Virus record (IMG/VR): IMGVR_UViG_647533160_000003
Reading direction: 5' to 3' (one strand)
DNA: 64,000 nucleotides
Source: a virus
Taxonomy: Duplodnaviria > Heunggongvirae > Uroviricota > Caudoviricetes
This document shows, piece by piece, positions 2,733-53,974 of the stretch (positions are counted from its first letter, which is position 1; each line of letters begins with the position of its first letter). The notes under the pieces are model-generated. The model made no database searches. It was given only the letters and a program-made list of their open reading frames with translations, and was not told the DNA's origin. The position numbers and the translations under genes were made by a program.

Positions 2733-3323
2733 TTGAGGTGCTGCTTGGCACCTCTTTCTATAGGTTCCCTAATGCTCTACAAATATATTGGAAGTGAAGA
2801 TTCGCAAAAAGTGTTACGTAACCTCAAACGGTTTGTAGAGGACGGCACTATCTCTGCTAGCGCACCTTCTTCATTCAACGACCCATCAGAGTTCAAAGTT
2901 TCGATAACGATGGGAGGTACAGAAGTGGAGCGCCGGAAACACTTTGAAGACAATGGATGTAAGGATTTTTCCTTTGAAGACTGGGATGCTGTAGCTCCTG
3001 AAGCTGCAAAATCGTTGGCTGTGGATTTGCGGAAAGAATCATTAGGGGCTTTTGGTGTGGTGTGCTTGTCACCAAACGAAGATAACATCTTGATGTGGTC
3101 ACATTACTCAGTGTCGCATAAAGGTTTCTGCATAGGCTTTGATGATGATTTTGTTACCTCTATTGAGGGGTATCACAGCTTTGATAATGTGAAATATATA
3201 CCTTCTGTTCCCGTGTTCGATGAAGTTACAGATGAGTTTAAGGTACTTTTTGATAAGCTCTTTTTCTACAAGCACGAATGCTGGAAATATGAGGAAGAAC
3301 AAAGGGTTATTACTAAAAAATAG
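2733..3323 (+). CDS. DUF2971-like protein (tentative), probably frameshifted
   Basis: N-terminal LYKYIGSED...FNDPSEF pattern; coding signal continues in another frame from the A6 run at 3317 to a stop at about 3490. Confidence 0.45.
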   Translation: MRCCLAPLSIGSLMLYKYIGSEDSQKVLRNLKRFVEDGTISASAPSSFNDPSEFKVSITMGGTEVERRKHFEDNGCKDFSFEDWDAVAPEAAKSLAVDLRKESLGAFGVVCLSPNEDNILMWSHYSVSHKGFCIGFDDDFVTSIEGYHSFDNVKYIPSVPVFDEVTDEFKVLFDKLFFYKHECWKYEEEQRVITKK

Positions 3324-3532
3324 GCGCTCAGGCATTTGATAAGAAATATATTAGAGAGATCATTCTTGGGTATAACGTTTCTCCTGAAGTAGAAGAATAT
3401 GCCCGGACACAGCTAGACACGAGCATCGAGGTTTACAAAATGAGTACACCTGATGATGGTTATCTTCTTGTCAAAGAAAAGCTGAAGTAGCTCCAGACTT
3501 TCCTCAAATGATTATGTTGGGCGCTTTTCTTA

Positions 3533-4729
3533 TTGAACTGGTTAGTGAGGCTAATAATGGATTTGTTCTCAACCAAAATAGCAAAAAACAAGCTGCACGA
3601 ATCTTTTAAACAGATTTATCAAGATAATACATATGCTCCAGTAAGAGAAGTGATACAGTCGTGGGGGCGTGGGTTACTGGAGCGTAGCGGTGAGCAGACT
3701 AAATTCGTTAAAGAGTTTCAGACAACCTTCAATTCCGCCTTATGGGAATTGTATCTGAACGAAATGTTTATTCGTCTCGATTATTCTGTCGACTACACAA
3801 AAGACAGTCCCGATTTCTGTGTTACTACACCGTCAGGCTACCAGTTTAACGTCGAAGCTGTGATATCAGATCGGCCACATAATCCACCTGCAGGTGCTCT
3901 TTTTAGCGAATCAAAATTCAAACATCAATCAACGCTAAAATTAATCGGAAAAATCAAAGACAAACATGATCTTTTTACAGGAGTTAATGGCAAAAAATTC
4001 CCGTACTCTACGATGTCTCATGTAGTTAATAAGCCGTTTGTTCTGGCGCTTGCACCCTTTGACTCCGATTTATCATTGTCTCAAAATAACACAATCATCA
4101 ATCGAGTGTTGTTTGGCATTGAGGAACCTACCACCAGAAATTTGGTGACTGGCAGCCAAACTAAAGTTACCTCAATCAAAAAGAATGAAGACGTTGAAAT
4201 TCCATTAGGTATATTTACTAACGACTCATATAAAGAAATAAGTGCGGTTATTTTCTCCACCACCGGCACTTTTGGAAAAGCCGTGGTTCAAAGCGGTATC
4301 GGTAGATATGTAAGGTCAACACGATATCGAGCCATTGATGTGAATGATTTCATCGCCAATGAAGGGATGAAAAACGAGGGAAAGCACACACAAAGGATAG
4401 GACCTGATCATTTCATCACTACATATCGGCATTTTTTAAATAACGAAGTCACTGGTGCGGATATTGTAGTTTGCCATTCCACTGCTCATGAAGAGACGCA
4501 CTTTGACGGCCTTCATATTTACTACAATCCTTTTGCGACAGTGCCACTGGACAGAAATATTTTCTTCCCCCCAGAGATAACTCATAATTTTTACGATATG
4601 GAAAAAGAACAGTCTGTTCAGAATCATCCTGATGGAGCGCTGGTATCTAGACAGGTTTTTGAACCAACTAGAGCACATTTTAGGTATATCATGAAACATT
4701 GGTTTCCAGGCTTTCTAAAAGATGTTTAA
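3533..4729 (+). CDS. hypothetical protein (accessory, lower GC)
   Basis: 398-aa ORF; no confident motif; likely start at Met 3557. Confidence 0.5.
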   Translation: MNWLVRLIMDLFSTKIAKNKLHESFKQIYQDNTYAPVREVIQSWGRGLLERSGEQTKFVKEFQTTFNSALWELYLNEMFIRLDYSVDYTKDSPDFCVTTPSGYQFNVEAVISDRPHNPPAGALFSESKFKHQSTLKLIGKIKDKHDLFTGVNGKKFPYSTMSHVVNKPFVLALAPFDSDLSLSQNNTIINRVLFGIEEPTTRNLVTGSQTKVTSIKKNEDVEIPLGIFTNDSYKEISAVIFSTTGTFGKAVVQSGIGRYVRSTRYRAIDVNDFIANEGMKNEGKHTQRIGPDHFITTYRHFLNNEVTGADIVVCHSTAHEETHFDGLHIYYNPFATVPLDRNIFFPPEITHNFYDMEKEQSVQNHPDGALVSRQVFEPTRAHFRYIMKHWFPGFLKDV

Positions 4730-15024: not shown

Positions 15025-16236
15025 TCAAAAAAGTTTTATAAATTCATAATTCTGGTCAATTAAGGATTCAATACACACCATGCAAAAATCTACATCGTTA
15101 AAATCAGGTGTGTAATATTCATCCTCATAACATTCATTTAGACCTTCAATCAATTTTTCTTTAAAAACTCCCCACGTTTCAATATGAACCATTTCCATAT
15201 AAGGCGCATGTGTATGTACTTGCAATACATCCCAGGTGTCTATAACCTCGATCCGCGGCTTGCAATTAATTTTTTCTAAATATGCCCTCCCAGAATTGTA
15301 AATTTTCGACATTGATGCCCCAAAACCTGATGGTTGGTAATGAGTGTAAATGTCATAAATTTTTTGTCCTATTCTAGGGAGTTGAGAAGCATTGGATATT
15401 TGTGGCGAATGAAAGTATCGCTCTATGGAAGAAAACGCAGAAACATTAACTAGAGTAATCGTATATGGTGCTAAAGTTCTCTCGTTCAAATTTCTACATA
15501 AAATAGCAAACCCATGGCTATTAGTCTTTTCACCGTCTGAGGACATTTTTGCCATGCTGGCTTTAATAACATTCAATTTCGAATGTAAACGAGAAGTGGA
15601 AGTCGGTTGATTATACATTTCATCATCATACAAACATATATGAAACCCGCCAAGATGACGAAATGAGAACTTGAGTGCTTCTTCCGCAATAACTAATTTA
15701 TTAATATCTAAAGGAGTAAGTGATACGTTACCTTGTAAATCATAGCAAGGTTCTAAACATAGAAAGTTTTTCTTCTGCCACACGATCATATTAAAAATAA
15801 AGTGTCTAACCAAAGGTGGCCAGTCAGGTGATATAAGTACATTGGTAATATCTCCATCAGACAAGTATGACAAGTAACTTTTTAGTTCCGCAGCATATGC
15901 CACTAGCTCAGTTCCAGCTTCCCTTGTTGGTGTTGAAAAATTTTTTAACTCAATAAGAACTAAGGATTCATTCTCTGTTGAATAAGCAACGACATCAGGT
16001 CTTAATATCTCAGATTTTGTTGCTGAGATATTCTCATCATCTGTCATTAAATGTAACAATGTTATGTTCTTTAAACAAAACTGATAACTCTCCTTAATTT
16101 TTTTCTCTTCGGGTCTTTTCGGATTAAATTCATTTAATTTATCAATATTGATGATTGAATTATATAATCCATCTTGATCAGATAATTTGTCAATTATCCA
16201 ATTTTGCATTTCCTTTTCGCTTAAAAATATTGACAC
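15025..16236 (-). CDS. PD-(D/E)xK nuclease-like protein, second gene of candidate two-gene defense operon
   Basis: 403 aa; RPDVVAYSTENESLVLIELK is a PD-x14-ExK match; GTG start preceded by GGGAG RBS; very AT-rich. Confidence 0.6.
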   Translation of the reverse strand: MSIFLSEKEMQNWIIDKLSDQDGLYNSIINIDKLNEFNPKRPEEKKIKESYQFCLKNITLLHLMTDDENISATKSEILRPDVVAYSTENESLVLIELKNFSTPTREAGTELVAYAAELKSYLSYLSDGDITNVLISPDWPPLVRHFIFNMIVWQKKNFLCLEPCYDLQGNVSLTPLDINKLVIAEEALKFSFRHLGGFHICLYDDEMYNQPTSTSRLHSKLNVIKASMAKMSSDGEKTNSHGFAILCRNLNERTLAPYTITLVNVSAFSSIERYFHSPQISNASQLPRIGQKIYDIYTHYQPSGFGASMSKIYNSGRAYLEKINCKPRIEVIDTWDVLQVHTHAPYMEMVHIETWGVFKEKLIEGLNECYEDEYYTPDFNDVDFCMVCIESLIDQNYEFIKLF

Positions 16237-16262: not shown

Positions 16263-17084
16263 TTAAAAATCTTGCTTTACTTTATCCATGGTCAGAATTT
16301 TGCTAATAATTGAAGATTCAAATCCATCTAAACCTGAGAGAAAGTTAATTAGCTTTTGGATATGTTGTTCTTTAGGTATAAGTATATATTTTATATCATT
16401 GAACTCAAAATCAATGCCAAACTTTGAAAATTTTGAGCTAATTTTTGCTTTGTCATCAGAAGTGATAACACGCTCCAAACTCAGACTAGGCCATAAATCA
16501 CCAATAAAAGGAGCTGGCACATAACGCCACTCTTTCTCGTCTGCATATATATAATTCTCTATTGTTTTATTATCTTTTCGCTCTAGCTTGCCTCTGTAAT
16601 TTTTCATATAACGCAGTAAATTATATAGATCAGAATATTCTGCTTTCAATTTCTCAAACTCTATTCTGTTTTTGGTATCTAAATTTCCTCTAGCCTTCCA
16701 AAGCGGCACCAACTTATTTTTAATAAGTCGAATTCTGGCATTGTATTTAGAAAATATTTCACTACTCTTATTCATATATAGAACTGGGTGTAGACCTTTC
16801 TTTTCCGCCCAAGACTTAGTTAGCCCAAGACCGAATTCTCCATATTTTCCGCTATGATCTCTGATTTGTGATAGTTTTATGTCACAAAACGATACCATTG
16901 GTACTGCAAACCTCCTGCGTCCCCCGACTCCTCTTATTTCCTCGCGAGCAAGAAATGGTTTAAAATATTTCTCAGCCAATATGCTATAGAAAGCATCTTC
17001 GTTTTTTGTAAAATGAAACAACGTGGTTGGATGAAGACTATAAACAGATTCAACATTCGCATCAGGATTTTCAAGGATAGTCAT
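16263..17084 (-). CDS. hypothetical protein (LFHFT N-terminal motif), first gene of candidate two-gene defense operon
   Basis: About 273 aa from Met 17084 (AGGTG RBS 5 nt upstream; ORF open to 17129); 26-nt gap to downstream gene; AT-rich. Confidence 0.55.
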   Translation of the reverse strand: MTILENPDANVESVYSLHPTTLFHFTKNEDAFYSILAEKYFKPFLAREEIRGVGGRRRFAVPMVSFCDIKLSQIRDHSGKYGEFGLGLTKSWAEKKGLHPVLYMNKSSEIFSKYNARIRLIKNKLVPLWKARGNLDTKNRIEFEKLKAEYSDLYNLLRYMKNYRGKLERKDNKTIENYIYADEKEWRYVPAPFIGDLWPSLSLERVITSDDKAKISSKFSKFGIDFEFNDIKYILIPKEQHIQKLINFLSGLDGFESSIISKILTMDKVKQDF

Positions 17085-17373
17085 TTTACACCTTGTGGAA
17101 AGCCAGTTTAGTTCTGTAAATAGTATCACACGACAGGCGGCTATTCTTCTATCAATAAATGATAGGTAAGCACTTACTTTTTACGCACGTTAACTGTATA
17201 GTTCTTTCGGATACTCACTTGAAAGGACTCAATATGGGAAATAAATGTAAACATGCGCGTCGCGCATCTCGTCAGGTGCAGAAGTCAAATCCATACATTC
17301 ACGAGCACTACCACCTCAGCTCTTTCACTAACCGCTACACGTTCCCCAGCGAAGCGCATAACGAGGCAAAGCA

Positions 17374-19449: not shown

Positions 19450-20553
19450 ATGAAAAATAGCTTTGACAGAGCACGCGCTGCGGAGAACACCTCAAAAGAG
19501 GCGATTGAGTATCTCGAAAGAGCATCTCAAATGCAGGCCGTTATGATCTCCCAGGTCAGCAATGACATGAGATTCTCGGACGCATTCATGTTATTCACTC
19601 GCTTATCTCTGCTGATAACAAGACGTCGGCCAGAGATCGCTGTTCATTGTATTTTGATACATGTTTTGCCGCACATTGCCGATGTAAAAGTAAGTGATAT
19701 TAATAGGTTCATGGTGAACCAACTGGTCAACCCACTAATACTGGATGGCAAAATTGTTATGGGTCGCCGCGTTTTCTCTCTGATGAAGCAGTTCCTCAGC
19801 TGGTGCGCCTTCCAGGGGATGATCGACGTGTCACCGTTAAACGATATGTCACTTAACAAAGTTGCCGGTGGCGCAAAGCCCACACCTCGCGAGCGGAAGC
19901 TGACCGACGCAGAGGTATGGGTGTTCTGGAATATATGGGACTACTTCAATGTGTGTGCTGGTACAAAATGGGCGGCCAGGCTATGTCTTGTATCCGCAAG
20001 ACGACCTGACGAAGTACTGCGGGCTAAAAAAAGTGAGTTCAATCTTAAGCGTGGGGTTTGGAATCAAGGCAAGAGGAACAAATCTGCCCGTGAGCATTCT
20101 CTGCCTTTAAGCTCATTAATGCGCACATGTATTGAAGAGTTGTTCGAATATGGTAAAGACAGCCAGTGGCTCGTGCCTTCGAATAAAAAAATCGGGAAAG
20201 ACCTTCCTATGTCTAAAGTGGCAATAGCCCAGGCATTACGTCGTATTCTGGAACGACCAGAACTGATGGAGCTTGAGCCATTTACACCCCGAGATTTGCG
20301 CCGTACTGCGCGTAGTTACTTCCCAGCATTAGGCATAAGCCAGGAGGTATCACGTAAAATCATGAACCACAGTCTTGAGGGGATAGATCGGGTCTACGAC
20401 CGGCACGATTATATGGACGAGATGCGAGACGCCTTAGAAAGTTTCTCGACGTACATCGCATCAATCGTAGAGCAACCGGATTTAGACGAAATTGACCACA
20501 AATTTAAGGGAGATCGTCTATCAACAGAGCTTATTCGTGTAAATTTTTCATAG
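19450..20553 (+). CDS. tyrosine recombinase/integrase, apparently lacking N-terminal arm-binding domain
   Basis: Catalytic-domain residues in order: R (FNVCAGTKWAARLCLVSARRPDE), H-x-x-R (RDLRRTARSY), NHS, C-terminal DRVYDRHDY; 367 aa. Confidence 0.7.
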   Translation: MKNSFDRARAAENTSKEAIEYLERASQMQAVMISQVSNDMRFSDAFMLFTRLSLLITRRRPEIAVHCILIHVLPHIADVKVSDINRFMVNQLVNPLILDGKIVMGRRVFSLMKQFLSWCAFQGMIDVSPLNDMSLNKVAGGAKPTPRERKLTDAEVWVFWNIWDYFNVCAGTKWAARLCLVSARRPDEVLRAKKSEFNLKRGVWNQGKRNKSAREHSLPLSSLMRTCIEELFEYGKDSQWLVPSNKKIGKDLPMSKVAIAQALRRILERPELMELEPFTPRDLRRTARSYFPALGISQEVSRKIMNHSLEGIDRVYDRHDYMDEMRDALESFSTYIASIVEQPDLDEIDHKFKGDRLSTELIRVNFS

Positions 20554-35258: not shown

Positions 35259-35313
35259 TCGCCTATTCATAACTAACAAAATAAGTAAACACTAACCACA
35301 AAAGGAAAAACAC

Positions 35314-35589
35314 ATGAGAGTTTTAGTTCGAATCGTTACCAGCACTGTCTATGACGTGTTTCCGCTTTTTATGGTCAAAGCCGATGGCCTTAACGACGAA
35401 GAAACTGACGCGCTGATCCAGCGTATTCTCGTTGAATATACAGGTCATGACGCTGATTCAGTGATGATTGATGATGATGGTGTTTGTTGGCATAACGGCA
35501 ACTGTTGGTACGTAGAAGAGACTCAACAAATCAGTGATGAAGATGCCGCACATCTTGAGCGTATTTTAAGCATCAGCACTTTTGAGTGA
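35314..35589 (+). CDS. hypothetical protein
   Basis: 91-aa ORF with conserved AAAGGAAAAACACATG start context. Confidence 0.45.
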   Translation: MRVLVRIVTSTVYDVFPLFMVKADGLNDEETDALIQRILVEYTGHDADSVMIDDDGVCWHNGNCWYVEETQQISDEDAAHLERILSISTFE

Positions 35590-36140: not shown

Positions 36141-36352
36141 TGGCATTAACACTGGCAGGTCTGGAAATCGAGAAAACAAGCGGATACTGGCGTGCTAAGG
36201 GTTTCAAGCAGCCTGGCATTCTTGAGCGTCTGGAACGTGAAGATGGGTATATCGTCCACCAGCGGCGTGAATGGCGTATGTACGATCCAGAAACAGGAAA
36301 ACTGACTACAAAAGCCGGAACACTTTGGGGTCTGTTGAAGAAAATACACTAA
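36140..36352 (+). CDS. hypothetical protein
   Basis: 70-aa ORF, ATGG overlap with upstream stop. Confidence 0.4.
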   Translation: MALTLAGLEIEKTSGYWRAKGFKQPGILERLEREDGYIVHQRREWRMYDPETGKLTTKAGTLWGLLKKIH

Positions 36353-36399
36353 ATGCAAACTGACTGCGGCACGTGCCGCAGTCATATTTCATAGTCGTC

Positions 36400-36933
36400 A
36401 CCGCTGACAGCATACACAATCAACTGCCGCTGATAGCATATCGAGAGTCTATCTCACCGCTCACAGCATACTTTACTCGATTTTTTACCGCTGACAGCAT
36501 ACTTAAGACATTGCATGAATAATATGTCCCGGTATGGGTATAACCAGAACAAAATTACCGCTGGCAGCATACGAAGGTCTGACATATACCATTAATTACC
36601 GCTGATAGCATATCCAAACAAAAATTCCTCAATAAAACACCGCTGACAGCATACGTTCTATCAGAGAGCAGCAGGCAATAAATGCCTTTCACTACAAGCA
36701 ATCAGCGCAATGGCAATAGAATGTTAGTGAGCGCAAACCTTTATGGAATGCACTCTTCGAGGTTAGTAACCACTGGGGAGGTATGACAGAGCATTGAGTG
36801 GTGATAGATGATTAACCGCTCACAGCATACGTTTATCTCACTATACCGCTGGTAGCATATCTTTTAACCGTTCACAGCATACTTTTCAGGAAAATAGCCG
36901 CTGATAGCATACATTTCACCGCTGACAGCATAT
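36400..36933. repeat. iteron array downstream of rep (incA-like): 12 copies of CCGCTGACAGCATAC
   Basis: 15-bp direct repeats starting at 36401, 36427, 36457, 36488, 36558, 36599, 36640, 36816, 36846, 36868, 36898, 36919. Confidence 0.8.
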
Positions 36934-38027
36934 CAAAGCAGTTTGAGACTATTGGAAAGGATCTCAATCATCTTGATATTTTCAGGCGTCAAATTCTGCG
37001 AAAGTTCAGTTATCTTGTTGATAATGTTCTGTTTAGCATCAATTTCCCCGGCTTTCTCATCTGGTTTTTTGGGTTCGATGTCTTCAGGTTTTGGCGGTGC
37101 GACTTTGAGTTTTGGATTGCGGCTGTGAATCTGGATATAGATCGACCGCCCCCGCTTAATCTCGCTATATTCGAGATAGCCCAAATCTTGGAGAGCTTTT
37201 AAGCCGTTACGTATAGTCTGATTCTGCGAGCTGACATTCCTGCTACTCAAATTGAGTCGCGCACGCAATCGAGCAAGCGATACCGGCGCAGGCTTGGTTG
37301 GAAGACTTTCGATGAAGGTGTACAGAGCCTGTGCTGTTTCTTTGCGTGGTAGCTTATTGATAACCTTTAACTGCAAAAGAACCTTATGGTCAAAGCGATA
37401 TAGTTCGGCCAGCTTCGGTTCTGCATAGAACACCACCGTATCTTTCTGCTCGTTGTAGTCCACGCTATTGATGAGGTGCACCATCAGAAGCGAGATCTTG
37501 TTAGAGCCGTCGACGTTCTTTTCTTCATACGTTCTCTGGAAAGACAGAGTTGTACGCATGATCTTCAAAAGACTGTTTGTAAGCCGGTCGCGGAGTGTTT
37601 TGCGGATCTGTGACGATGGATAGCCACAAAACTTCGCAAATTTCGTGATGCTTAACTCGACACGACCGTTAGGTTCGCCGTATTCTGCCAGCGAACGCAC
37701 AACGCCCACCCACGTTTTGAAATCATGATCCATGTCGAGACGAGGACCGGTTATCTTGATATCGGAATAGCCTTCAGAACGGGCTACTTCGAGCTGAACA
37801 AGCTCCTTTGAAGCATCGATCTCATTTGGCTTGTTACGCTTGCTGTATTTTGTCCCCTTGAGCGTGGGCACGAACAACCCCAGCCGCATCAACGCAATTG
37901 GTTGGACTGTATTGTTGCTATTAGGGACAAGTTCCCCTGTGTACAATTCAAGGGAACCTTCTTCAAAGTTGTCGAGATTATCTTCTACTTCTTTGTTATT
38001 TTTACCTTTTTTATTTTTTGTGGACAT
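36933..38027 (-). CDS. plasmid replication initiator (Rep), iteron-flanked
   Basis: 364 aa from Met 38027 (MSTKNKKGK); ORF open to 38147 but that extension runs through iterons; Rep call is positional only. Confidence 0.65.
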   Translation of the reverse strand: MSTKNKKGKNNKEVEDNLDNFEEGSLELYTGELVPNSNNTVQPIALMRLGLFVPTLKGTKYSKRNKPNEIDASKELVQLEVARSEGYSDIKITGPRLDMDHDFKTWVGVVRSLAEYGEPNGRVELSITKFAKFCGYPSSQIRKTLRDRLTNSLLKIMRTTLSFQRTYEEKNVDGSNKISLLMVHLINSVDYNEQKDTVVFYAEPKLAELYRFDHKVLLQLKVINKLPRKETAQALYTFIESLPTKPAPVSLARLRARLNLSSRNVSSQNQTIRNGLKALQDLGYLEYSEIKRGRSIYIQIHSRNPKLKVAPPKPEDIEPKKPDEKAGEIDAKQNIINKITELSQNLTPENIKMIEILSNSLKLL

Positions 38028-38048
38028 GTGGACACCTTTGTCATTCAA

Positions 38049-38149
38049 CCGCTGACAGCATACTTGATTTGCCGCTGGCAGCATACCAAAAACAGTTGGC
38101 AGCATACGGCGAACCGTTGACAGACTATCAATTACCGCTGGCAGCATAC
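38049..38149. repeat. iteron array upstream of rep (incC-like): about 5 copies
   Basis: Same CCGCTGRCAGCATAC family starting at 38049, 38072, 38093, 38114, 38135. Confidence 0.75.
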
Positions 38150-38189
38150 ATGAACATGGCTTCAGACCAGTCGTGGCGCGGCTTACAGC

Positions 38190-38265
38190 GATCGGGGATC
38201 TTATTTGATCTATACAAGGATCTATCTATGGATCTCTTTATTAGGATCTATCCTGTGGATATGTG
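38190..38265. promoter_or_regulatory. origin-like region: five clustered GATC sites plus DnaA-box-like TGTGGATAT
   Basis: GATC at 38197, 38207, 38219, 38231, 38245 within GGATCTAT-type repeats; TGTGGATAT at 38254-38262. Confidence 0.55.
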
Positions 38266-38348
38266 AATAATTAAAACAGGCATTTACTACCTTCGGCGCA
38301 CCTGGTGAGTTATCGTTGCCTCGGCTAACAATCACAGAAAAATGACAT

Positions 38349-38993
38349 ATGGATCTAAAACGCACGCGCTGGGTTCGTCGTCTTGAAAACGGCTCCTACA
38401 CTATCGAATCAAATTCCAACCTGAATAAGCAGAAGTTGCTTTGTGACATCTGCGGTATAGCGGCGAAGTGCCCGATCTACGAAACCAGAATTAAACTTGA
38501 TAAGGCTGGTGTGAACTTTCATTTAAACAGTTGCATCAGGTACGTTCCATTGCTCGCATTTCGTAAACCGATCATCGGATTGGATGCACCCTACTTCAAC
38601 ACACTCCGTTCAGGTGTGACGTGGCGAGATCGTTTATCACCAGACAAGCTGATTTGCCTTGTATCCGCAGACACAGGGAAAATCATCCGTTTTGGGAAAG
38701 TAGACAAGATTTACTCAGGCCCAGTAGACGAAATGTTGCGGAAACACAGCCGGTTTAATCATCTCTGTATGGGGGGTGAGAAAATCGAGAAGGTAGAAGA
38801 AGTGATCCGCAAATCCTACGGACACTTCCTGACCAAAGATAGCCTGCTCACCGCAATCTACATCAGACATGTAAAACGTGAGTTCGACCTCGAATACCAC
38901 AGTGAAGAAGAGCTTAACCTTGTTGATCCACGTCCAAAAGCTGGCGTCATAAGCATAAACGCAGCGCGTAAAAAGCCCACTGACGCGCTGTAA
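38349..38993 (+). CDS. hypothetical protein
   Basis: 214-aa ORF. Confidence 0.5.
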   Translation: MDLKRTRWVRRLENGSYTIESNSNLNKQKLLCDICGIAAKCPIYETRIKLDKAGVNFHLNSCIRYVPLLAFRKPIIGLDAPYFNTLRSGVTWRDRLSPDKLICLVSADTGKIIRFGKVDKIYSGPVDEMLRKHSRFNHLCMGGEKIEKVEEVIRKSYGHFLTKDSLLTAIYIRHVKREFDLEYHSEEELNLVDPRPKAGVISINAARKKPTDAL

Positions 38994-42479: not shown

Positions 42480-43212
42480 ATTAAGCCGCTCGCAGTTTTT
42501 GCAGGTGTTTGCGGTGATGCAGTCGATAAAACTGATCAATGGGCATACTTCCAATGGTGCGGCTCCACGTATTCTGTGGGGCAGCAATAATATTGACAAA
42601 GCACAATTCGCCCCGTTGCTTGGTCTAATATCCGAGACACCATTGATGCAAAGTTTGGAATCACTGCCGTCTGGATGTATTGCGCCGATCTTGATTAATC
42701 CTTTTGTTGAGGGAGGATATCTTCCCAACGTCGGACCTGGGTTTATCGCAACCCATGAAACTGAAGATCTTAACATTGATAGCGAAGGGTTCTTTGGGGC
42801 AATGGATGCGCATCTCTGTATGGCTTTCACGAACCTTATTCGACTTGCCAATAAGCGAGCGGATAGTTTGGCATCGCCAGGTGATGCTTTTACTGGTTTC
42901 CTTATCCAAAGGAGAGATAAAAAGTACAGTGCGGATAAACTACAGTTTATTGGTAAGTATGGGGAAATGGTAGAAATCGAACTTCAGCTCCCTCATGTTT
43001 TAGCAAACGATAGTGCAGACAGTCGGAGGCTGTTGGGCATCATGCGTCATTTCATAGCAAGTGGCGTTAAACATGCCGTAGATAAACGTGTCACGCAGGA
43101 AAATGAGTGTTCAGACTTTGCAAACTATCCCCAACCAACGTTGCAAACGGCAATAGTAGCCAATTCGTTGGAGGCGAGATTATTGGAAAACCCTATATGG
43201 GGAACATGGTAA
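42469..43212 (+). CDS. hypothetical protein
   Basis: 247-aa ORF overlapping sbcC-like stop. Confidence 0.5.
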   Translation: MSFKLSRSQFLQVFAVMQSIKLINGHTSNGAAPRILWGSNNIDKAQFAPLLGLISETPLMQSLESLPSGCIAPILINPFVEGGYLPNVGPGFIATHETEDLNIDSEGFFGAMDAHLCMAFTNLIRLANKRADSLASPGDAFTGFLIQRRDKKYSADKLQFIGKYGEMVEIELQLPHVLANDSADSRRLLGIMRHFIASGVKHAVDKRVTQENECSDFANYPQPTLQTAIVANSLEARLLENPIWGTW

Positions 43213-43221
43213 GGAGACTAT

Positions 43222-43791
43222 ATGAGTAAAAAAATCAGCGTAGTTGGTGTTGATCCCTCAATGAGCAACTTTGGGCTTGCTGTGGGCACTTTAGACCTTG
43301 AAACGGACGAACTTGAGATTCACGGCCTTACTCTTGTTGAGACTAAAGCGGGGAGTAACAAAAAGACAGTTCGTGTGAACAGCGACGATCTGCGCCGTGC
43401 CAGTGAAATATGGCGTGTTGCGAAGCCAATCATTGATAAGGCAAATATGGTTTTTTGTGAGCTACCGGTTGGGAGCCAAAACTCTCGTTCGCAGACGTCT
43501 TACGGTATTTGTATCGGTGTACTTGCGTGTGTGGATAAGCCATTGATCCAGGTTACTCCAAACGAAATTAAGCATTTTGTCGGCAATAAACTTACTACAT
43601 CGAAAGAAGAGATTATCCAGTGGGCTACGAAAAAACACCCTAAAGCACCGTGGCTGCGTCGTAAGCAATCTGGACAGGATGTTCTCGTGAACAAAAACGA
43701 ACATTTGGCTGATGCGGTGGCTGCCATCCATACCGGTATGCAAACGGATCAGTTCCGCCAGGTGCGCGATGTTCTTAAGTCTCTCATTTGA
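43222..43791 (+). CDS. RuvC-like Holliday junction resolvase
   Basis: VVGVDPSMSNFGLAV (RuvC motif I-like) and C-terminal HLADAVAAIHTG. Confidence 0.6.
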   Translation: MSKKISVVGVDPSMSNFGLAVGTLDLETDELEIHGLTLVETKAGSNKKTVRVNSDDLRRASEIWRVAKPIIDKANMVFCELPVGSQNSRSQTSYGICIGVLACVDKPLIQVTPNEIKHFVGNKLTTSKEEIIQWATKKHPKAPWLRRKQSGQDVLVNKNEHLADAVAAIHTGMQTDQFRQVRDVLKSLI

Positions 43792-43864
43792 TTTTATTGA
43801 TAGGTAAGTGCTTATCTATTAACATGGGCCACTATATTTAGTGGCCCTCTTTATTTGGTGATAC

Positions 43865-46180
43865 ATGATAAGCATCGTAAAACGTAACGGCCAAACAGAG
43901 CCGTTATCCGAAGAAAAATACAACCGCGTCGTAATGTATGGCGTAGAAGGCATTCGTGGCGTAAGCGCATCCGCTGTAGCAATGGGAGCTGCGGCCAGCA
44001 TTTTTGATGGGATGACCACCAGCCAGTTGCATGAGGCTTTGGTTAAATCTGCCGCTGATTTGATCTCACCAGAAGCACCAAATTACTCACAGGTGGCTGC
44101 CCGCCTGAACATTTTTAAAATCCGCAAAGATGCCTTCGGTCGTTACGACTATCCGAACTTCTACCAACACATTGTCAAGAACGTTAACAAGGGCGTTTAT
44201 GACAAGGATTTGCTGACACATTATTCGTTTGAAGAGATCGAAGAACTCGGCAATTACATTAAGCCGAAACGTGACGATCTTTTTGGCTATGCAGCTACGG
44301 TACAGTTGCAAAGCAAATACCTCGTTCAAAACCGTGTTACTGGAGAGATTCACGAAGGTCCGCAACATATCTATATGCTGGTTGGCATGTGTCTGTTCCA
44401 GAATTGGGAAGACGACTGCGCGGGCAAAACACGTATGGAGATGGTTAAAGGTTTCTATGACATTACAAGTACGTTCAAACTGTCTCTGCCCACACCAATC
44501 ATGGCCGGCGTCCGTACTCCAACCCGTCAGTTCTCCAGTTGTGTGCTGATTGAGTCTGGCGATAGTCTGAAAGGTATTAGTGCAGCTTCAGCCGCAATTA
44601 TCGACTACGTTTCACGTCGTGCTGGAATTGGTATTGGTTTTGGCCGTATCCGTGCGCTGGGCAGCGAGATCCGCAATGGTGAAGCCACCCATACCGGAGT
44701 TATTCCATTCCTGAAGCATTTCCAGACGGCTGTTAAATCTTGCTCGCAAGGTGGTGTTCGTGGTGGCGCAGCAACAGCGTTTTACCCGATCTGGCATCTT
44801 GAAGTTGAAAGTCTGCTGGTGGTGAAAAATAACCGTGGTATTGATGAAAACCGCGTTCGCCATCTTGATTACGGCGTCATGAGTAACCGTCTAATGTACC
44901 GTCGACTCGTCAGAAGCGAGAACATCACTCTGTTCAGCCCGCATGATGTGCCTGATATGTACGAAGCCTTCTTCACAGACCAGGAGCTGTTTGAAAAGCT
45001 GTACCATAAATACGAAGCCGATGATTCAATTCGCAAGAAGTCAGTACCTGCCATTGAGCTGTTCTCATCTCTGATGCAGGAACGAGCGTCCACGGGCCGA
45101 ATTTATATTGCGAACGTCGATCATATTAATGAGCATGGCGCTTTCATTCCTGCTCTTGCACCTGTCCGCCAGTCAAACCTGTGCATGGAGATCACTCTAC
45201 CCACTCGTCCACTGGCATTTACCGACGACCCGAACGGTGAGATCGCGCTATGCACTTTATCCGCTTTTAACCTCGGAGCCATCCGTTCACTGGAGTCTCT
45301 TAAAGAGGTGGCGTTCTATGCCGTTGCTGCACTGGATTCGTTACTGGATTATCAAGACTATCCGATGGAGGCAGCCGAAGTGCCTGCCAAAGCTCGTCGT
45401 AGCTTGGGAATTGGTGTAACCAACTTTGCTTATTACCTGGCAAAGAATGGCGTTCGTTATTCTGATACCGCTGGCAATAAACTGGTGCATGAAACGTTCG
45501 AAGCTATCCAGTATTACCTTCTTGATGCCAGCTGCCGACTTGCTGAAGCAAAAGGTGAGTGTGACTGGTTTGAGCAGACCAAGTACGCAATTGGTCAGTT
45601 GCCGATCGACCATTACCGTTCTTCATTAGACGAAAGTGGCGAAACCAACTTTGAGTTAAAGATGCCGTGGGAAGAACTGCGTGAACGTATTGCAAAATAC
45701 GGCCTTCGCAACTCCACACTGACGGCACAAATGCCATGCGAGACTTCCAGCCAGATCACTAATTCCACCAACGGCATCGAACCGCCTCGTGGCCCGGTGT
45801 CGGTGAAATCTTCTAAGGACGGCATCGTTAAGATGGTCGTGCCTGAGTTTGAAAAACTGAAGGAACAGTATGAATACCTGTGGGATATGCCGGACAACCG
45901 CGGCTATCTGACAAAGGTGGCGATCATCCAGAAGTTCTTTGACCAGGCTATTTCAGCCAATACCAACTATGACCCTTCTCGCTTTGAAGGCGATAAAGTC
46001 CCAATGATGACGCTACTGTCAGATTTGCTTCTCGCCTACAAGATGGGAGTTAAAACGCTTTACTACCACAACACCAGAGATGGGGCAGGAAAGCGTGATG
46101 ACGACGAACCGCAGAATCCACTGACGCAAGCTGTAGCCGTCGAGCCAGAAGATGAGTGCGACGGAGCCTGCAAAATCTGA
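43865..46180 (+). CDS. nrdA: ribonucleotide reductase large subunit (class Ia)
   Basis: N-terminal ATP-cone, active-site NLCMEI, C-terminal Cys pair; 771 aa. Confidence 0.9.
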   Translation: MISIVKRNGQTEPLSEEKYNRVVMYGVEGIRGVSASAVAMGAAASIFDGMTTSQLHEALVKSAADLISPEAPNYSQVAARLNIFKIRKDAFGRYDYPNFYQHIVKNVNKGVYDKDLLTHYSFEEIEELGNYIKPKRDDLFGYAATVQLQSKYLVQNRVTGEIHEGPQHIYMLVGMCLFQNWEDDCAGKTRMEMVKGFYDITSTFKLSLPTPIMAGVRTPTRQFSSCVLIESGDSLKGISAASAAIIDYVSRRAGIGIGFGRIRALGSEIRNGEATHTGVIPFLKHFQTAVKSCSQGGVRGGAATAFYPIWHLEVESLLVVKNNRGIDENRVRHLDYGVMSNRLMYRRLVRSENITLFSPHDVPDMYEAFFTDQELFEKLYHKYEADDSIRKKSVPAIELFSSLMQERASTGRIYIANVDHINEHGAFIPALAPVRQSNLCMEITLPTRPLAFTDDPNGEIALCTLSAFNLGAIRSLESLKEVAFYAVAALDSLLDYQDYPMEAAEVPAKARRSLGIGVTNFAYYLAKNGVRYSDTAGNKLVHETFEAIQYYLLDASCRLAEAKGECDWFEQTKYAIGQLPIDHYRSSLDESGETNFELKMPWEELRERIAKYGLRNSTLTAQMPCETSSQITNSTNGIEPPRGPVSVKSSKDGIVKMVVPEFEKLKEQYEYLWDMPDNRGYLTKVAIIQKFFDQAISANTNYDPSRFEGDKVPMMTLLSDLLLAYKMGVKTLYYHNTRDGAGKRDDDEPQNPLTQAVAVEPEDECDGACKI

Positions 46181-53380: not shown

Positions 53381-53974
53381 ATGATTGCAGCCGAAAAAAT
53401 CAAACAGCGAAAGCGCGACAACTCTCTTCGTGACCTCTGGAGAACACCTGATTGGCTGTTTTCTGCCATTCAACGTTATCTTGGAGTGACATTTGATGTT
53501 GACGTTGCCTGCAACAAGGACAATGCAAAGCTGCCTAATTTCATAGGCGTTGAGCGCGATGCTTTGAAATCTGAATGGGGGCAGCCAGGTACAATTGCCT
53601 TCCTCAATCCACCCTACTCCAAAATCTCCCCCTGGATTGATGCGGCTATACGTGAGCAGGCTCGCGGAGTTACAACAGTGATGCTAATTCCTCAATCCCT
53701 CGATACAAAGTGGTATGAGCGTGCAACAGAGTATGCGAATGAGACGATTATTCTATCTGGTGGCCGCGTAGCGTTTGTCGAGCCTGACGTCAATTTGGGT
53801 CAGGTAGAAGTAAACATCAACCCCGGTGGCAGTATGCTCGTTGTTTTTCGAGGATTCTGTCAGGACGCCGGGCACTCTATAAGTAAGATCCCTTTGGACG
53901 TGATGAAAAGTCTGGGAGGGTATGATCCTGCGAATGTGATCAGGAAAAAAAGACCATCAAAGAAGGCTGCTTAG
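53381..53974 (+). CDS. DNA N6-adenine methyltransferase (phage Dam-like), orphan
   Basis: Catalytic NPPY motif (AFLNPPYSKISPW); 197 aa; no adjacent endonuclease ORF. Confidence 0.65.
   Translation: MIAAEKIKQRKRDNSLRDLWRTPDWLFSAIQRYLGVTFDVDVACNKDNAKLPNFIGVERDALKSEWGQPGTIAFLNPPYSKISPWIDAAIREQARGVTTVMLIPQSLDTKWYERATEYANETIILSGGRVAFVEPDVNLGQVEVNINPGGSMLVVFRGFCQDAGHSISKIPLDVMKSLGGYDPANVIRKKRPSKKAA

What the first reader, a model, noticed from the sequence alone, without database searches (positions are those of the whole stretch)
36400..38265. P1-type plasmid replicon: Rep gene flanked by two iteron arrays plus five clustered GATC sites and a DnaA-box-like site
Twelve 15-bp iterons (CCGCTGACAGCATAC family) lie downstream of the minus-strand Rep gene, and about five more lie upstream within its apparent leader. 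Beyond them, five GATC sites sit within about 50 bp (38197-38248), followed by TGTGGATAT (38254-38262). This mirrors the P1 oriR/incC/repA/incA layout and supports extrachromosomal maintenance, together with the ParA pair and the element-encoded Dam-like methyltransferase. The 160-bp iteron-free spacer (36655-36815) is unexplained.
Basis: partly seen in the sequence, partly recalled or inferred. Interest (0 to 1): 0.55.

Follow-up and report, generated by a model that had tools for sequence, protein, structure and literature searches.

The report
P1/RepFIB-type replicon of a phage-plasmid
This stretch is the plasmid replication unit of an SSU5-like phage-plasmid of E. coli, built almost piece for piece like the well-studied phage P1 plasmid origin, so it is real but ordinary, apart from one small conserved DNA element of unknown role inside its copy-control repeats.

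Summary
Window 36385-38270 holds a complete iteron replicon.

- **Initiator:** a minus-strand gene (36933-38027) whose product is 43.5% identical to P1 RepA along P1's whole length and about 50% identical to classical IncFIB Rep proteins.
- **Origin side:** five iterons at 21-23 bp spacing, a GC block, six (not five) GATC heptamers, then two overlapping DnaA boxes (38254-38270). This core aligns base for base with P1 oriR.
- **Control side:** twelve iterons in direct orientation, the first touching the rep stop codon, as in P1 incA.

Iteron sequences differ between lineages while the origin core is conserved. Rep is under strong purifying selection.

The same replicon is found in 119 of 5,426 complete E. 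coli genomes, always on plasmids, usually 100-114 kb SSU5/pHCM2-like phage-plasmids. Typing schemes already file the SSU5 group as IncFIB. It is therefore a member of a known kind, and function is inferred by homology, not shown.

The one new detail is in the "empty" 160-bp spacer. It holds a conserved two-box element (AGTGRYYACTAAC twice, exactly 39 bp apart). This element is specific to SSU5-group replicons and independent of iteron type. Its function is unknown.

The parts
36361..36384 (.). Perfect GC-rich hairpin (TGACTGCGGCACGTGCCGCAGTCA), a two-way terminator-like site that bounds the replicon on the left
   Evidence: The terminator scan finds it on both strands and it appears as inverted repeat I2. 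It is conserved in the E. coli-type loci that were used as a landmark.
36401..36654 (-). Distal block of seven control iterons, equivalent to part of P1 incA. Starts: 36401, 36427, 36457, 36488, 36558, 36599, 36640. All are in direct orientation.
   Evidence: The first three are precisely deleted (36400-36486) in phage PhiR41_1, between identical iterons at 36401 and 36488. 26 of 27 complete E. coli-type loci keep all 12 downstream iterons.
36655..36815 (.). Iteron-free spacer between the two control blocks
   Evidence: No iteron within 3 mismatches. The S. Anatum plasmid pSAN1-1735 has a spacer of the same size.
36723..36778 (-). Conserved bipartite element inside the spacer. Box B is 36723-36738 (rep sense GTTTGCGCTCACTAAC). 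Box A is 36762-36778 (rep sense CCCAGTGGTTACTAAC). The consensus is AGTGRYYACTAAC twice, with an invariant 39 bp from start to start. Function is unknown.
   Evidence: Against S. Anatum the boxes are 89% identical, compared with 45% for the non-iteron sequence around them. The element is present in 77 IMG/VR loci of about 7 sequence types and in 5 enterobacterial genome contigs, each time next to a Rep homologue. It is absent from P1, JK004, RCS47 and classical IncFIB replicons.
36816..36933 (-). Proximal block of five control iterons (starts 36816, 36846, 36868, 36898, 36919). The last one touches the rep stop codon, as iteron 9 of P1 incA does.
   Evidence: P1 annotation.
36933..38027 (-). 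rep gene, 364 aa, a RepA/Rep_3-family initiator. The likely start is the ATG at 38027, preceded by AAGGTG. RefSeq's 404-aa call from 38147 runs through the origin iterons.
   Evidence: Pfam Rep3_N, E = 3.9e-9; phrog_775, E = 5e-133; 43.5% identity to P1 RepA; alignment A2; dN/dS about 0.03 against S. Anatum. The PhiR41_1 record annotates the 364-aa form. The frame upstream is not open in P1 or SSU5.
38049..38149 (-). Five origin iterons, equivalent to P1 incC. Starts: 38049, 38072, 38093, 38114 (degenerate), 38135. Spacing is 23/21/21/21. By analogy with P1 they are expected to overlap the rep promoter.
   Evidence: P1 incC spacing is 22/21/21/21, with PrepA inside the iterons. Klebsiella, JK004 and RCS47 show the same pattern, and P1 is shown alongside; in SSU5 only three upstream iterons passed the mismatch threshold.
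38167..38182 (.). GC-rich block CCAGTCGTGGCGCGGC, lying between the iterons and the GATC array
   Evidence: 15 of 16 positions identical to P1 oriR; well conserved in Klebsiella P-P, P1, JK004 and RCS47, weakly in SSU5.
38190..38248 (.). Six GATC sites, five of them in (G/T)GATCT(A/T/C) heptamers, in a stretch that is 62% A+T. This is the presumed Dam-methylated unwinding region.
   Evidence: The sites correspond one to one with P1's five annotated Dam sites plus P1's degenerate GGACCT. The right-hand part resembles the third 13-mer of E. coli oriC and the adjoining DnaA box (that box is R1 by recall).
38254..38270 (-). Two DnaA boxes overlapping by one base: ATATCCACA (8 of 9) and TTATTCACA (perfect fit to TTATNCACA)
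   Evidence: They sit where P1's annotated tandem DnaA site sits, 9 bp after the last GATC in both.
53381..53974 (+). Element-encoded Dam-family N6-adenine methyltransferase. It is a possible trans-acting helper for the GATC-rich origin; the E. coli host Dam would also serve.
   Evidence: Pfam PF05869, E = 2e-38. Its target sequence and any role at the origin were not tested.

Best explanation
This is the functional theta-type plasmid replicon of an SSU5/pHCM2-like phage-plasmid of E. coli. It belongs to the P1 RepA / RepFIB family of iteron replicons.

The mechanism below is inferred by homology with P1 and RepFIB; none of its steps was tested here.

1. Rep monomers bind the five origin iterons (38049-38149).
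2. Host DnaA binds the two boxes at 38254-38270.
3. Together they open the A+T-rich GATC-heptamer region (38190-38248), where the host replisome is loaded.
4. Full Dam methylation of the six GATC sites is needed for firing. Hemimethylation after firing delays re-initiation.
5. The rep promoter lies among the origin iterons, so Rep represses its own gene.
6. The twelve downstream iterons (36401-36933) titrate Rep and pair with the origin iterons ('handcuffing'). This holds copy number near one or two per chromosome and determines incompatibility.

The iteron sequence (RTATGCTGYSAGCGGT) differs from those of P1, SSU5 and classical IncFIB plasmids. This lineage should therefore be a separate specificity and incompatibility group.

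The conserved two-box element in the spacer is most likely a binding site for a factor other than Rep. It is particular to SSU5-group replicons and its role is unknown.
For: **Shown here.**
- Seventeen iterons are arranged as described.
- Rep matches Pfam Rep3_N. It is 43.5% identical to P1/P7 RepA, E = 2e-64, aligns end to end with P1 RepA, and is about 50% identical to IncFIB Rep proteins in more than 5,000 plasmids.
- The origin core aligns with the annotated P1 oriR, Dam sites and DnaA site. Distances match: last iteron to first GATC is 41 bp here and 40 bp in P1, and last GATC to DnaA box is 9 bp in both.
- The same core is conserved in Klebsiella phage-plasmids, JK004, RCS47 and SSU5. 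Classical IncFIB plasmids also show GATC sites at 11-13 bp spacing upstream of rep, with a DnaA box beside them in two of three loci. Meanwhile the iterons differ with each Rep lineage.
- Against a Salmonella relative, iteron columns are 77% identical and surrounding sequence 45%.
- rep dN/dS is about 0.03.
- The replicon is in 119 of 5,426 complete E. coli genomes, never on a chromosome.
- It is the only replicon typed (rep_cluster_488) on the 100-111 kb plasmids inspected.
- 26 of 27 loci keep all 12 control iterons.

**From the literature.**
- The SSU5 supercommunity types as IncFIB (PMC7969092).
- In FIB replicons the upstream iterons go with the origin, and the downstream block alone displaces the plasmid (PMC11983097).
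- The P1 GenBank record lists the iterons, PrepA within them, the Dam sites and the DnaA site.
Against: - There is no experiment on this lineage. Rep binding, autonomous replication, Dam and DnaA dependence, and copy control are all inferred.
- The promoter scan found no sigma-70-like site among the origin iterons at its threshold. The best hand-picked candidate (TTGGTA, 18-bp spacer, AAGTAT) is weak.
- Unlike P1, there is no DnaA box between the iterons and the rep start, and no control iteron is inverted.
- The first DnaA box has one mismatch, and the two boxes overlap by one base rather than abutting.
- The element also encodes its own DnaB-like helicase, primase and Pol III alpha. A second, phage-type replication mode certainly exists, and its share in prophage maintenance is unknown.
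- NCBIfam and PDB sequence searches gave no hit.
Confidence: 0.9

Rival explanations
1. The replicon is a decayed or silent relic. The prophage is instead maintained from a separate phage-type origin, using its own helicase, primase and polymerase.
For: The element encodes a DnaB-like helicase, a primase, Pol III alpha, a gp32-like SSB and a RecA-like protein. No experiment ties rep to maintenance in this lineage.
Against: - rep is intact and under strong purifying selection, with dN/dS about 0.03.
- Iterons are conserved islands within diverged sequence.
- The origin core is conserved across the family.
- 26 of 27 loci keep the full iteron set.
- It is the only plasmid replicon typed on these plasmids.
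Confidence: 0.05
2. The upstream repeats are coding sequence: the N-terminus of a 404-aa Rep as annotated in RefSeq. On this view they are not primarily origin or operator sites.
For: The ORF is open from 38147, and RefSeq annotates 1,215 nt. The extended frame is also open in the Klebsiella and S. Anatum relatives.
Against: - The repeats have a 21-bp (7-codon) period, so a frame that is open in one unit stays open in all of them.
- The extension is not open in P1 or SSU5.
- Homology to P1 RepA begins at residue 32 of the 364-aa form.
- AAGGTG sits 5 nt before the ATG at 38027.
- The PhiR41_1 record and many plasmid records start at the 364-aa ATG.
- The repeats match the spacing of P1 incC.
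Confidence: 0.04
3. The repeats are something other than initiator-binding sites, such as phage attachment sites or a CRISPR-like array.
For: The record for Klebsiella phage pJN2-26 labels two of the homologous repeats attL and attR.
Against: - Seventeen copies of a 16-nt core flank a RepA homologue in the exact P1 layout.
- Spacing is irregular, at 21-70 bp, and no cas genes were seen among the window ORFs that were scanned.
- The element is never chromosomal in 119 genomes.
Confidence: 0.01

Closest known systems
Phage P1 plasmid replicon (oriR/incC - repA - incA; IncY)
   Same: - The initiators are homologous: 43.5% identity over the full length of P1 RepA.
- Both have five origin iterons at about 21-bp spacing.
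- The GC block, GATC heptamer array and tandem DnaA boxes align at the DNA level with near-identical distances.
- In both, the control array begins at the rep stop codon.
   Different: - The iteron sequence differs: RTATGCTGYSAGCGGT here, GATGTGTGCTGGAGGGAAA in P1.
- There are 12 control iterons, all direct and in two blocks, whereas P1 has 9, of which 6 are inverted.
- There are six GATC sites instead of five.
- The DnaA boxes overlap by 1 bp, and there is none on the rep side of the iterons.
- Rep carries about 30 extra N-terminal and about 52 extra C-terminal residues.
- A two-box ACTAAC element is present that P1 lacks.
- The par genes are not adjacent to the replicon.
Classical RepFIB replicons of IncF plasmids (P307, F, pO157)
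   Same: - Rep is about 50% identical.
- rep is flanked by upstream origin iterons and downstream control iterons. GATC sites lie at 11-13 bp spacing upstream of rep, with a DnaA box beside them in two of three loci (PMC11983097).
- PlasmidFinder files SSU5-group replicons as IncFIB (PMC7969092).
   Different: - The iterons are different (ACTCACTACAGCTTATAT type).
- Two of the three classical IncFIB loci inspected have a tyrosine recombinase gene right after the control iterons.
- They lack the ACTAAC element.
- They are carried by conjugative plasmids, not by a phage.
Replicons of SSU5, of a 108-kb Yersinia pestis contig (possibly pMT1) and of the Klebsiella IncpKPHS1 phage-plasmids
   Same: - The genomic setting is the same: 70-aa gene, control iterons, rep, origin, 214-aa gene.
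- The Rep C-terminal tail is shared with SSU5 and the Klebsiella lineage.
- The ACTAAC two-box element is shared.
- Rep is 85% identical in the Klebsiella lineage, which uses the same iteron, and 48% identical in SSU5.
   Different: - SSU5-type iterons are unrelated in sequence (CTATCCACTGTAGTGAGTA), and three of them are inverted.
- The Klebsiella lineage has 8 control iterons, and the ACTAAC element lies beyond them.
- In SSU5 the element is inverted.
- The published IncpKPHS1 description reports only four downstream iterons and no recognisable Rep domain (PMC6735626).

Membership tests
P1 RepA / RepFIB-type iteron replicon | Initiator homologous to P1 RepA and RepFIB RepA | tested here: met
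   43.5% identity to P1/P7 RepA, E = 2e-64. About 50% identity to IncFIB Rep proteins. End-to-end alignment A2.
P1 RepA / RepFIB-type iteron replicon | Rep_3-type winged-helix initiator domain | tested here: met
   Pfam Rep3_N (WH1), E = 3.9e-9, 37.5 bits against a cut-off of 22.4.
P1 RepA / RepFIB-type iteron replicon | Cluster of direct iterons at about two helical turns next to the rep start (origin set) | tested here: met
   Five iterons at 38049-38149, spaced 23/21/21/21, compared with 22/21/21/21 in P1.
P1 RepA / RepFIB-type iteron replicon | Second iteron array downstream of rep (control, incA-like) | tested here: met
   Twelve iterons at 36401-36933, the first touching the stop codon. 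Spacings of 21-41 bp, plus gaps of 70 and 176 bp.
P1 RepA / RepFIB-type iteron replicon | A+T-rich region with clustered GATC (Dam) sites beside the origin iterons | tested here: met
   Six GATC in 59 bp, 62% A+T, p about 0.001 by random placement. The sites align with P1's annotated Dam sites.
P1 RepA / RepFIB-type iteron replicon | DnaA box or boxes at the outer edge of the origin | tested here: met
   ATATCCACA and TTATTCACA at 38254-38270, at the position of P1's annotated DnaA site.
P1 RepA / RepFIB-type iteron replicon | Autonomous replication that depends on Rep, DnaA and Dam; Rep binding to iterons; copy control and incompatibility exerted by the downstream array | not testable with these tools
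   Only indirect support. The replicon is always plasmid-borne in 119 genomes and is the sole typed replicon on these plasmids. Experiments on the FIB relative are in PMC11983097.
P1 incompatibility group proper (IncY: same iteron specificity as P1) | Iterons of the P1 sequence (GATGTGTGCTGGAGGGAAA) | tested here: not met
   The iteron core here is RTATGCTGYSAGCGGT, and the P1 iterons differ. It works like P1 but is not expected to share P1's specificity.
P1 incompatibility group proper (IncY: same iteron specificity as P1) | incA with iterons in two opposed orientations | tested here: not met
   All 12 are direct. P1 has 3 direct and 6 inverted.
Tus-Ter replication fork barrier (considered for the spacer element) | Conserved core GTTGTAACTA with G at position 6 | tested here: not met
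   By hand against the Ter consensus recalled from memory: the window box matches 9 of 11 core positions and other lineages 7-8 of 11, position 6 is C, and the positions conserved across lineages (CCCAGTG, ACTAACCT) are not those of Ter (sequences).

The most novel reading that the evidence does not exclude
The two-box element in the spacer is a previously undescribed cis-acting component of SSU5-group replicons. It consists of AGTGRYYACTAAC twice at an invariant 39-bp spacing, at window 36723-36778. It would be a binding site for a factor other than Rep, encoded either by the phage-plasmid or by the host. That factor might couple plasmid copy control to the phage's state, for example by releasing handcuffing on induction, or might serve another replicon-linked task such as priming or resolution.

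The element keeps its sequence and internal spacing across lineages whose iterons are unrelated. It changes position and orientation relative to the iterons. It occurs only once per element genome.
Probability: 0.3. Interest if true: 0.45.

Novelty: new member of a known kind. Interest (0 to 1): 0.25.

Why it matters
**The replicon.** It confirms that this widespread E. coli phage-plasmid lineage, present in about 2% of complete genomes, keeps itself as a low-copy plasmid with a P1/RepFIB-type iteron replicon. It also gives exact coordinates for the origin, the control iterons and the true rep start. These are useful for three things:
- correcting annotation, since the 404-aa Rep call and the 'attL/attR' labels placed on iterons appear to be wrong;
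- designing incompatibility-based curing cassettes;
- building vectors.

SSU5-like phage-plasmids carry ESBL genes in some lineages (PMC9600943, PMC8085198), so knowing which DNA controls their copy number has practical value. None of this overturns current understanding.

**The spacer element.** The conserved spacer element is the only part that could lead to new biology.

Tried and rejected
**Explanations for the spacer element, all rejected or unsupported.**
1. Tus-Ter site. The core matches only 7-9 of 11 positions by hand comparison, against a Ter consensus recalled from memory. Position 6 is wrong. The positions conserved across lineages are not those of Ter.
2. IHF site. There is no WATCAANNNNTTR match anywhere in 36300-38400.
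3. Structured RNA. Rfam gave no hit at E <= 1. RNAalifold on 8 sequence types gave -2.2 kcal/mol and no compensatory pair.
4. Operator of a phage master regulator, or a centromere. No further copies above chance were found in the 64-kb window or in the other 47 kb of a near-identical plasmid.
5. A feature general to the P1/RepFIB family. It is absent from P1, JK004, RCS47 and three classical IncFIB loci.
6. A diverged SSU5-type iterons. The window's box A shares the 9-mer TAACCACTG with an SSU5 iteron variant, but SSU5's own boxes do not resemble its own iterons. I judged this a chance match.

**Other leads.**
7. An intragenic inverted iteron-like site (37672-37694, 18 of 19 complementary to 38097-38115). 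It is not kept at synonymous sites in Klebsiella, so it is probably not functional.
8. Sigma-70 promoter among the origin iterons. None was found at the scan's threshold.
9. The 404-aa Rep. I explain this as a by-product of the 21-bp repeat period.

**Searches that gave nothing or could not be run.**
10. NCBIfam gave no hit. PDB sequence and profile searches gave no meaningful hit.
I judged a large homologue search for that purpose not worth the cost.
12. Papers I could not read: bioRxiv 10.64898/2026.08.19.745698, on phage-plasmid repA and copy-number heteroresistance; the P1 genome paper; and the pMT1 sequence paper.
Full report
**1. What is in the sequence**

The 15-mer CCGCTGACAGCATAC, allowing up to 3 mismatches, occurs 20 times in the 64-kb window against 1.2 expected. 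Sixteen of these hits lie on the + strand between 36401 and 38149.

Twelve hits lie downstream of a minus-strand ORF. Seven of them fall at 36401-36654 and five at 36816-36933. Four lie upstream at 38049-38149. A fifth, degenerate copy at 38114 is in phase, giving upstream spacing of 23/21/21/21.

Aligning all 17 copies shows a 16-nt high-information core. In the rep sense it reads RTATGCTGYSAGCGGT.

Beyond the upstream iterons there are six GATC sites, not five, at 38190-38248. This is the densest GATC cluster in the window, and only 20 of 20,000 random placements reach it.

Next come two DnaA boxes that overlap by one base. ATATCCACA lies at 38254-38262. TTATTCACA lies at 38262-38270 and is one of only two perfect TTATNCACA matches in 64 kb.

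The right edge moves to 38270.

**2. The protein**

The ORF read from the ATG at 38027 gives 364 aa, with AAGGTG five bases upstream. It matches Pfam Rep3_N and phrog_775.

By tblastn it is 43.5% identical to P1 and P7 RepA over residues 32-309, with E = 2e-64. It is 48% identical to SSU5 RepA and 85% identical to the Rep of Klebsiella SSU5-like phage-plasmids. It is about 50% identical to the Rep of classical IncFIB plasmids, of which more than 5,000 PLSDB records match.

The alignment covers the whole of P1 RepA. The SSU5-group proteins add a C-terminal tail of about 52 residues that P1, JK004 and RCS47 lack.

RefSeq annotates a 404-aa form that starts inside the iterons. I think this is an over-extension, for three reasons:
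- The 21-bp repeat period is seven codons, which keeps any open frame open across all units.
- The extension is not open in P1 or SSU5.
- Homology to P1 begins after the 364-aa start.

Between the window and a Salmonella relative, dN/dS is about 0.03. The gene is therefore under strong purifying selection.

**3. Comparison with P1**

The P1 GenBank record annotates, in the same order:
- nine incA iterons;
- repA, with the last incA iteron ending at the last base of the repA CDS;
- five incC iterons at 22/21/21/21 bp, with PrepA inside them;
- five Dam sites;
- a tandem DnaA site.

The window has the same order and nearly the same distances. From the last origin iteron to the first GATC is 41 bp here and 40 bp in P1. 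From the last GATC to the DnaA boxes is 9 bp in both.

A direct DNA alignment shows that the non-iteron origin core is homologous, running from CCAGTCGTGGCGCGGC through the GGATCT heptamers to CCTGTGGATA. P1's degenerate GGACCT corresponds to the window's extra GATC.

The same core aligns across the Klebsiella phage-plasmid pJN2-26, Cronobacter phage JK004, the P1-like RCS47, and SSU5. Three classical IncFIB loci also show five GATC sites at 11-13 bp spacing upstream of rep, with a DnaA box beside them in two of the three.

The right-hand part of the core also resembles the third 13-mer of E. coli oriC and the DnaA box beside it. That this box is R1 is from memory.

The iterons, in contrast, differ with each Rep lineage:
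- window and Klebsiella: GTATGCTGTCAGCGG;
- P1 and JK004: ATGTG(T/C)GCTGGAGGG;
- SSU5: CTATCCACTGTAG;
- RCS47: TGTTGACTATA.

This is the pattern expected when initiator and binding site co-evolve on a conserved, host-dependent origin core.

**4. Is it in use?**

Against the Salmonella Anatum plasmid pSAN1-1735, the downstream region is 77% identical in iteron columns and 45% identical elsewhere.

Of 27 complete E. coli-type loci, 26 keep all twelve downstream iterons. The exception is phage PhiR41_1, which lacks exactly 36400-36486. That is three iterons removed between two identical copies.

The replicon is found in 119 of 5,426 complete E. coli genomes, with 184 places on plasmids and none on chromosomes. 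It is also in more than 120 PLSDB plasmids, mostly 100-114 kb and non-mobilizable. In the four such plasmids whose records were opened, rep_cluster_488 is the only replicon typed.

The rest of the window is typical of the SSU5/pHCM2-like DNA-metabolism module:
- ParA-like ATPase;
- DnaB-like helicase and primase;
- ligase;
- integrase;
- Pol III alpha;
- gp32-like SSB;
- RecA-like protein;
- SbcCD-like proteins;
- ribonucleotide reductase;
- thymidylate synthase;
- Dam-family methyltransferase;
- MarR-family regulator.

The remainder of a near-identical plasmid carries siphovirus head and tail genes.

**5. Mechanism**

By homology, Rep monomers on the five origin iterons and DnaA on its boxes open the GATC-rich region. 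Dam methylation licenses firing. The rep promoter among the iterons is autorepressed. The downstream array titrates Rep and pairs with the origin to limit copy number and to set incompatibility.

The parts of this that rest on established knowledge of P1, recalled and not re-verified here, are the Dam requirement, SeqA sequestration, chaperone activation of RepA, and handcuffing.

The P1 record's annotation supports the site map. Experiments on FIB replicons show that the upstream set goes with the origin and that the downstream block alone displaces the plasmid (PMC11983097).

Nothing has been shown for this lineage. The promoter scan found no site among the iterons at its threshold.

**6. 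The spacer**

The 160-bp gap holds two conserved boxes on the rep strand: CCCAGTGGTTACTAAC (36762-36778) and GTTTGCGCTCACTAAC (36723-36738). The distance from start to start is exactly 39 bp.

The same pair, with consensus AGTGRYYACTAAC and invariant spacing, occurs in:
- pSAN1-1735;
- Klebsiella pJN2-26, where it lies beyond all the iterons;
- SSU5, where it is inverted;
- 77 IMG/VR loci of about seven sequence types;
- genome contigs of Kluyvera (two), Yersinia pestis, Rahnella and Buttiauxella, each with a Rep homologue ending within roughly 300-400 bp of the element.

It is 89% conserved where its surroundings are 45% conserved. It is absent from P1, JK004, RCS47 and classical IncFIB loci. 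It is not repeated elsewhere in the element genome.

Because it persists in lineages with unrelated iterons, it is not a Rep site. I tested and rejected Ter, IHF, a structured RNA and a multi-copy operator.

Its function is unknown. Each box is a partial 16-bp palindrome (GTTAGT-N4-ACTAAC in some lineages), which suggests a dimeric DNA-binding protein. That is an inference only.

**7. What is already known**

The SSU5 supercommunity is typed as IncFIB by PlasmidFinder (PMC7969092; bioRxiv 10.1101/2025.09.12.675607). E. coli pHCM2-like phage-plasmids with repA and parAB have been described (PMC8085198).

The Klebsiella sister lineage was named IncpKPHS1. That paper notes only four downstream iterons and no recognisable Rep domain (PMC6735626).

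I found no paper in the library that dissects this origin. One 2026 preprint on phage-plasmid repA and copy number could not be opened.

**8. Verdict**

This is a correct call on an ordinary, catalogued type of replicon. It is a new member of a known kind. Its fine anatomy is now mapped, several annotation errors have been exposed, and one small conserved element in the spacer remains unexplained.

Noticed in passing
window 36723-36778: A conserved two-box element (AGTGRYYACTAAC twice, 39 bp apart) sits inside the 'empty' spacer of the control iterons. It is specific to SSU5-group replicons, including a 108-kb Yersinia pestis contig. Its position and orientation relative to the iterons vary between lineages.
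   Followed up: yes
L002 (phage PhiR41_1, PV340561), against window 36400-36486: This phage lacks exactly three distal control iterons. The deletion lies between two identical iterons, so it has 9 rather than 12. P1 biology would predict a higher copy number, but this was not tested.
   Followed up: partly
window 37672-37694 (inside rep): An inverted iteron-like sequence within the rep coding region is 18 of 19 complementary to origin iteron 3 plus its flank (38097-38115). It is invariant in 28 E. coli-type loci but not kept at synonymous sites in Klebsiella. RCS47 also has an intragenic iteron-like site.
   Followed up: partly
window 36933-37100 (Rep residues about 310-364): The Rep proteins of the SSU5-group lineages examined (window, Klebsiella pJN2-26, SSU5) share a C-terminal tail of about 52 residues: a proline- and charge-rich linker followed by a conserved helix-like LxxExxxxxExL. 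P1, JK004 and RCS47 RepA lack it. No domain match was found.
   Followed up: partly
L005 (Klebsiella phage pJN2-26, MZ779062), locus 1378-1397 and 2648-2667: The record labels two 20-bp sequences either side of rep as attR and attL. Both are Rep iterons, so this is probably an automatic misannotation.
   Followed up: yes
window 38349-38993 (+): A 214-aa protein of unknown function (phrog_2105, no Pfam hit) sits immediately outside the DnaA boxes. SSU5 and Klebsiella pJN2-26 have an ORF of the same length and position. The phage Cyrano record calls its counterpart an ASCH-domain protein.
   Followed up: no
window 16263-17129 (-) and 15025-16236 (-): An AbiGi-family protein (PF10899), a putative abortive-infection component, lies next to a 403-aa ORF without a Pfam match. 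Together they may form a defence pair on the phage-plasmid.
   Followed up: no
L140 (pLH09-a-C, NZ_CP100547.1), locus 42631-45922: The near-identical plasmid carries host-like metG (methionine-tRNA ligase) and apbC genes next to an S24 peptidase (LexA/CI-like) gene. This region is outside the window.
   Followed up: no
window 35281-35296 (+): This is the only other AGT-N4-ACTAAC match in the window (ATAAGTAAACACTAAC). It lies in the intergenic gap upstream of the 91-aa ORF at 35314. It is about what chance would give (0.6 expected).
   Followed up: partly
L136 and L137 (classical IncFIB plasmids), locus about 2770-3560: In two of the three classical IncFIB loci inspected, a 246-aa tyrosine recombinase gene directly follows the downstream iterons. 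The phage-plasmid has a 70-aa ORF there instead, with its integrase-family gene 17 kb away (19450-20553).
   Followed up: no
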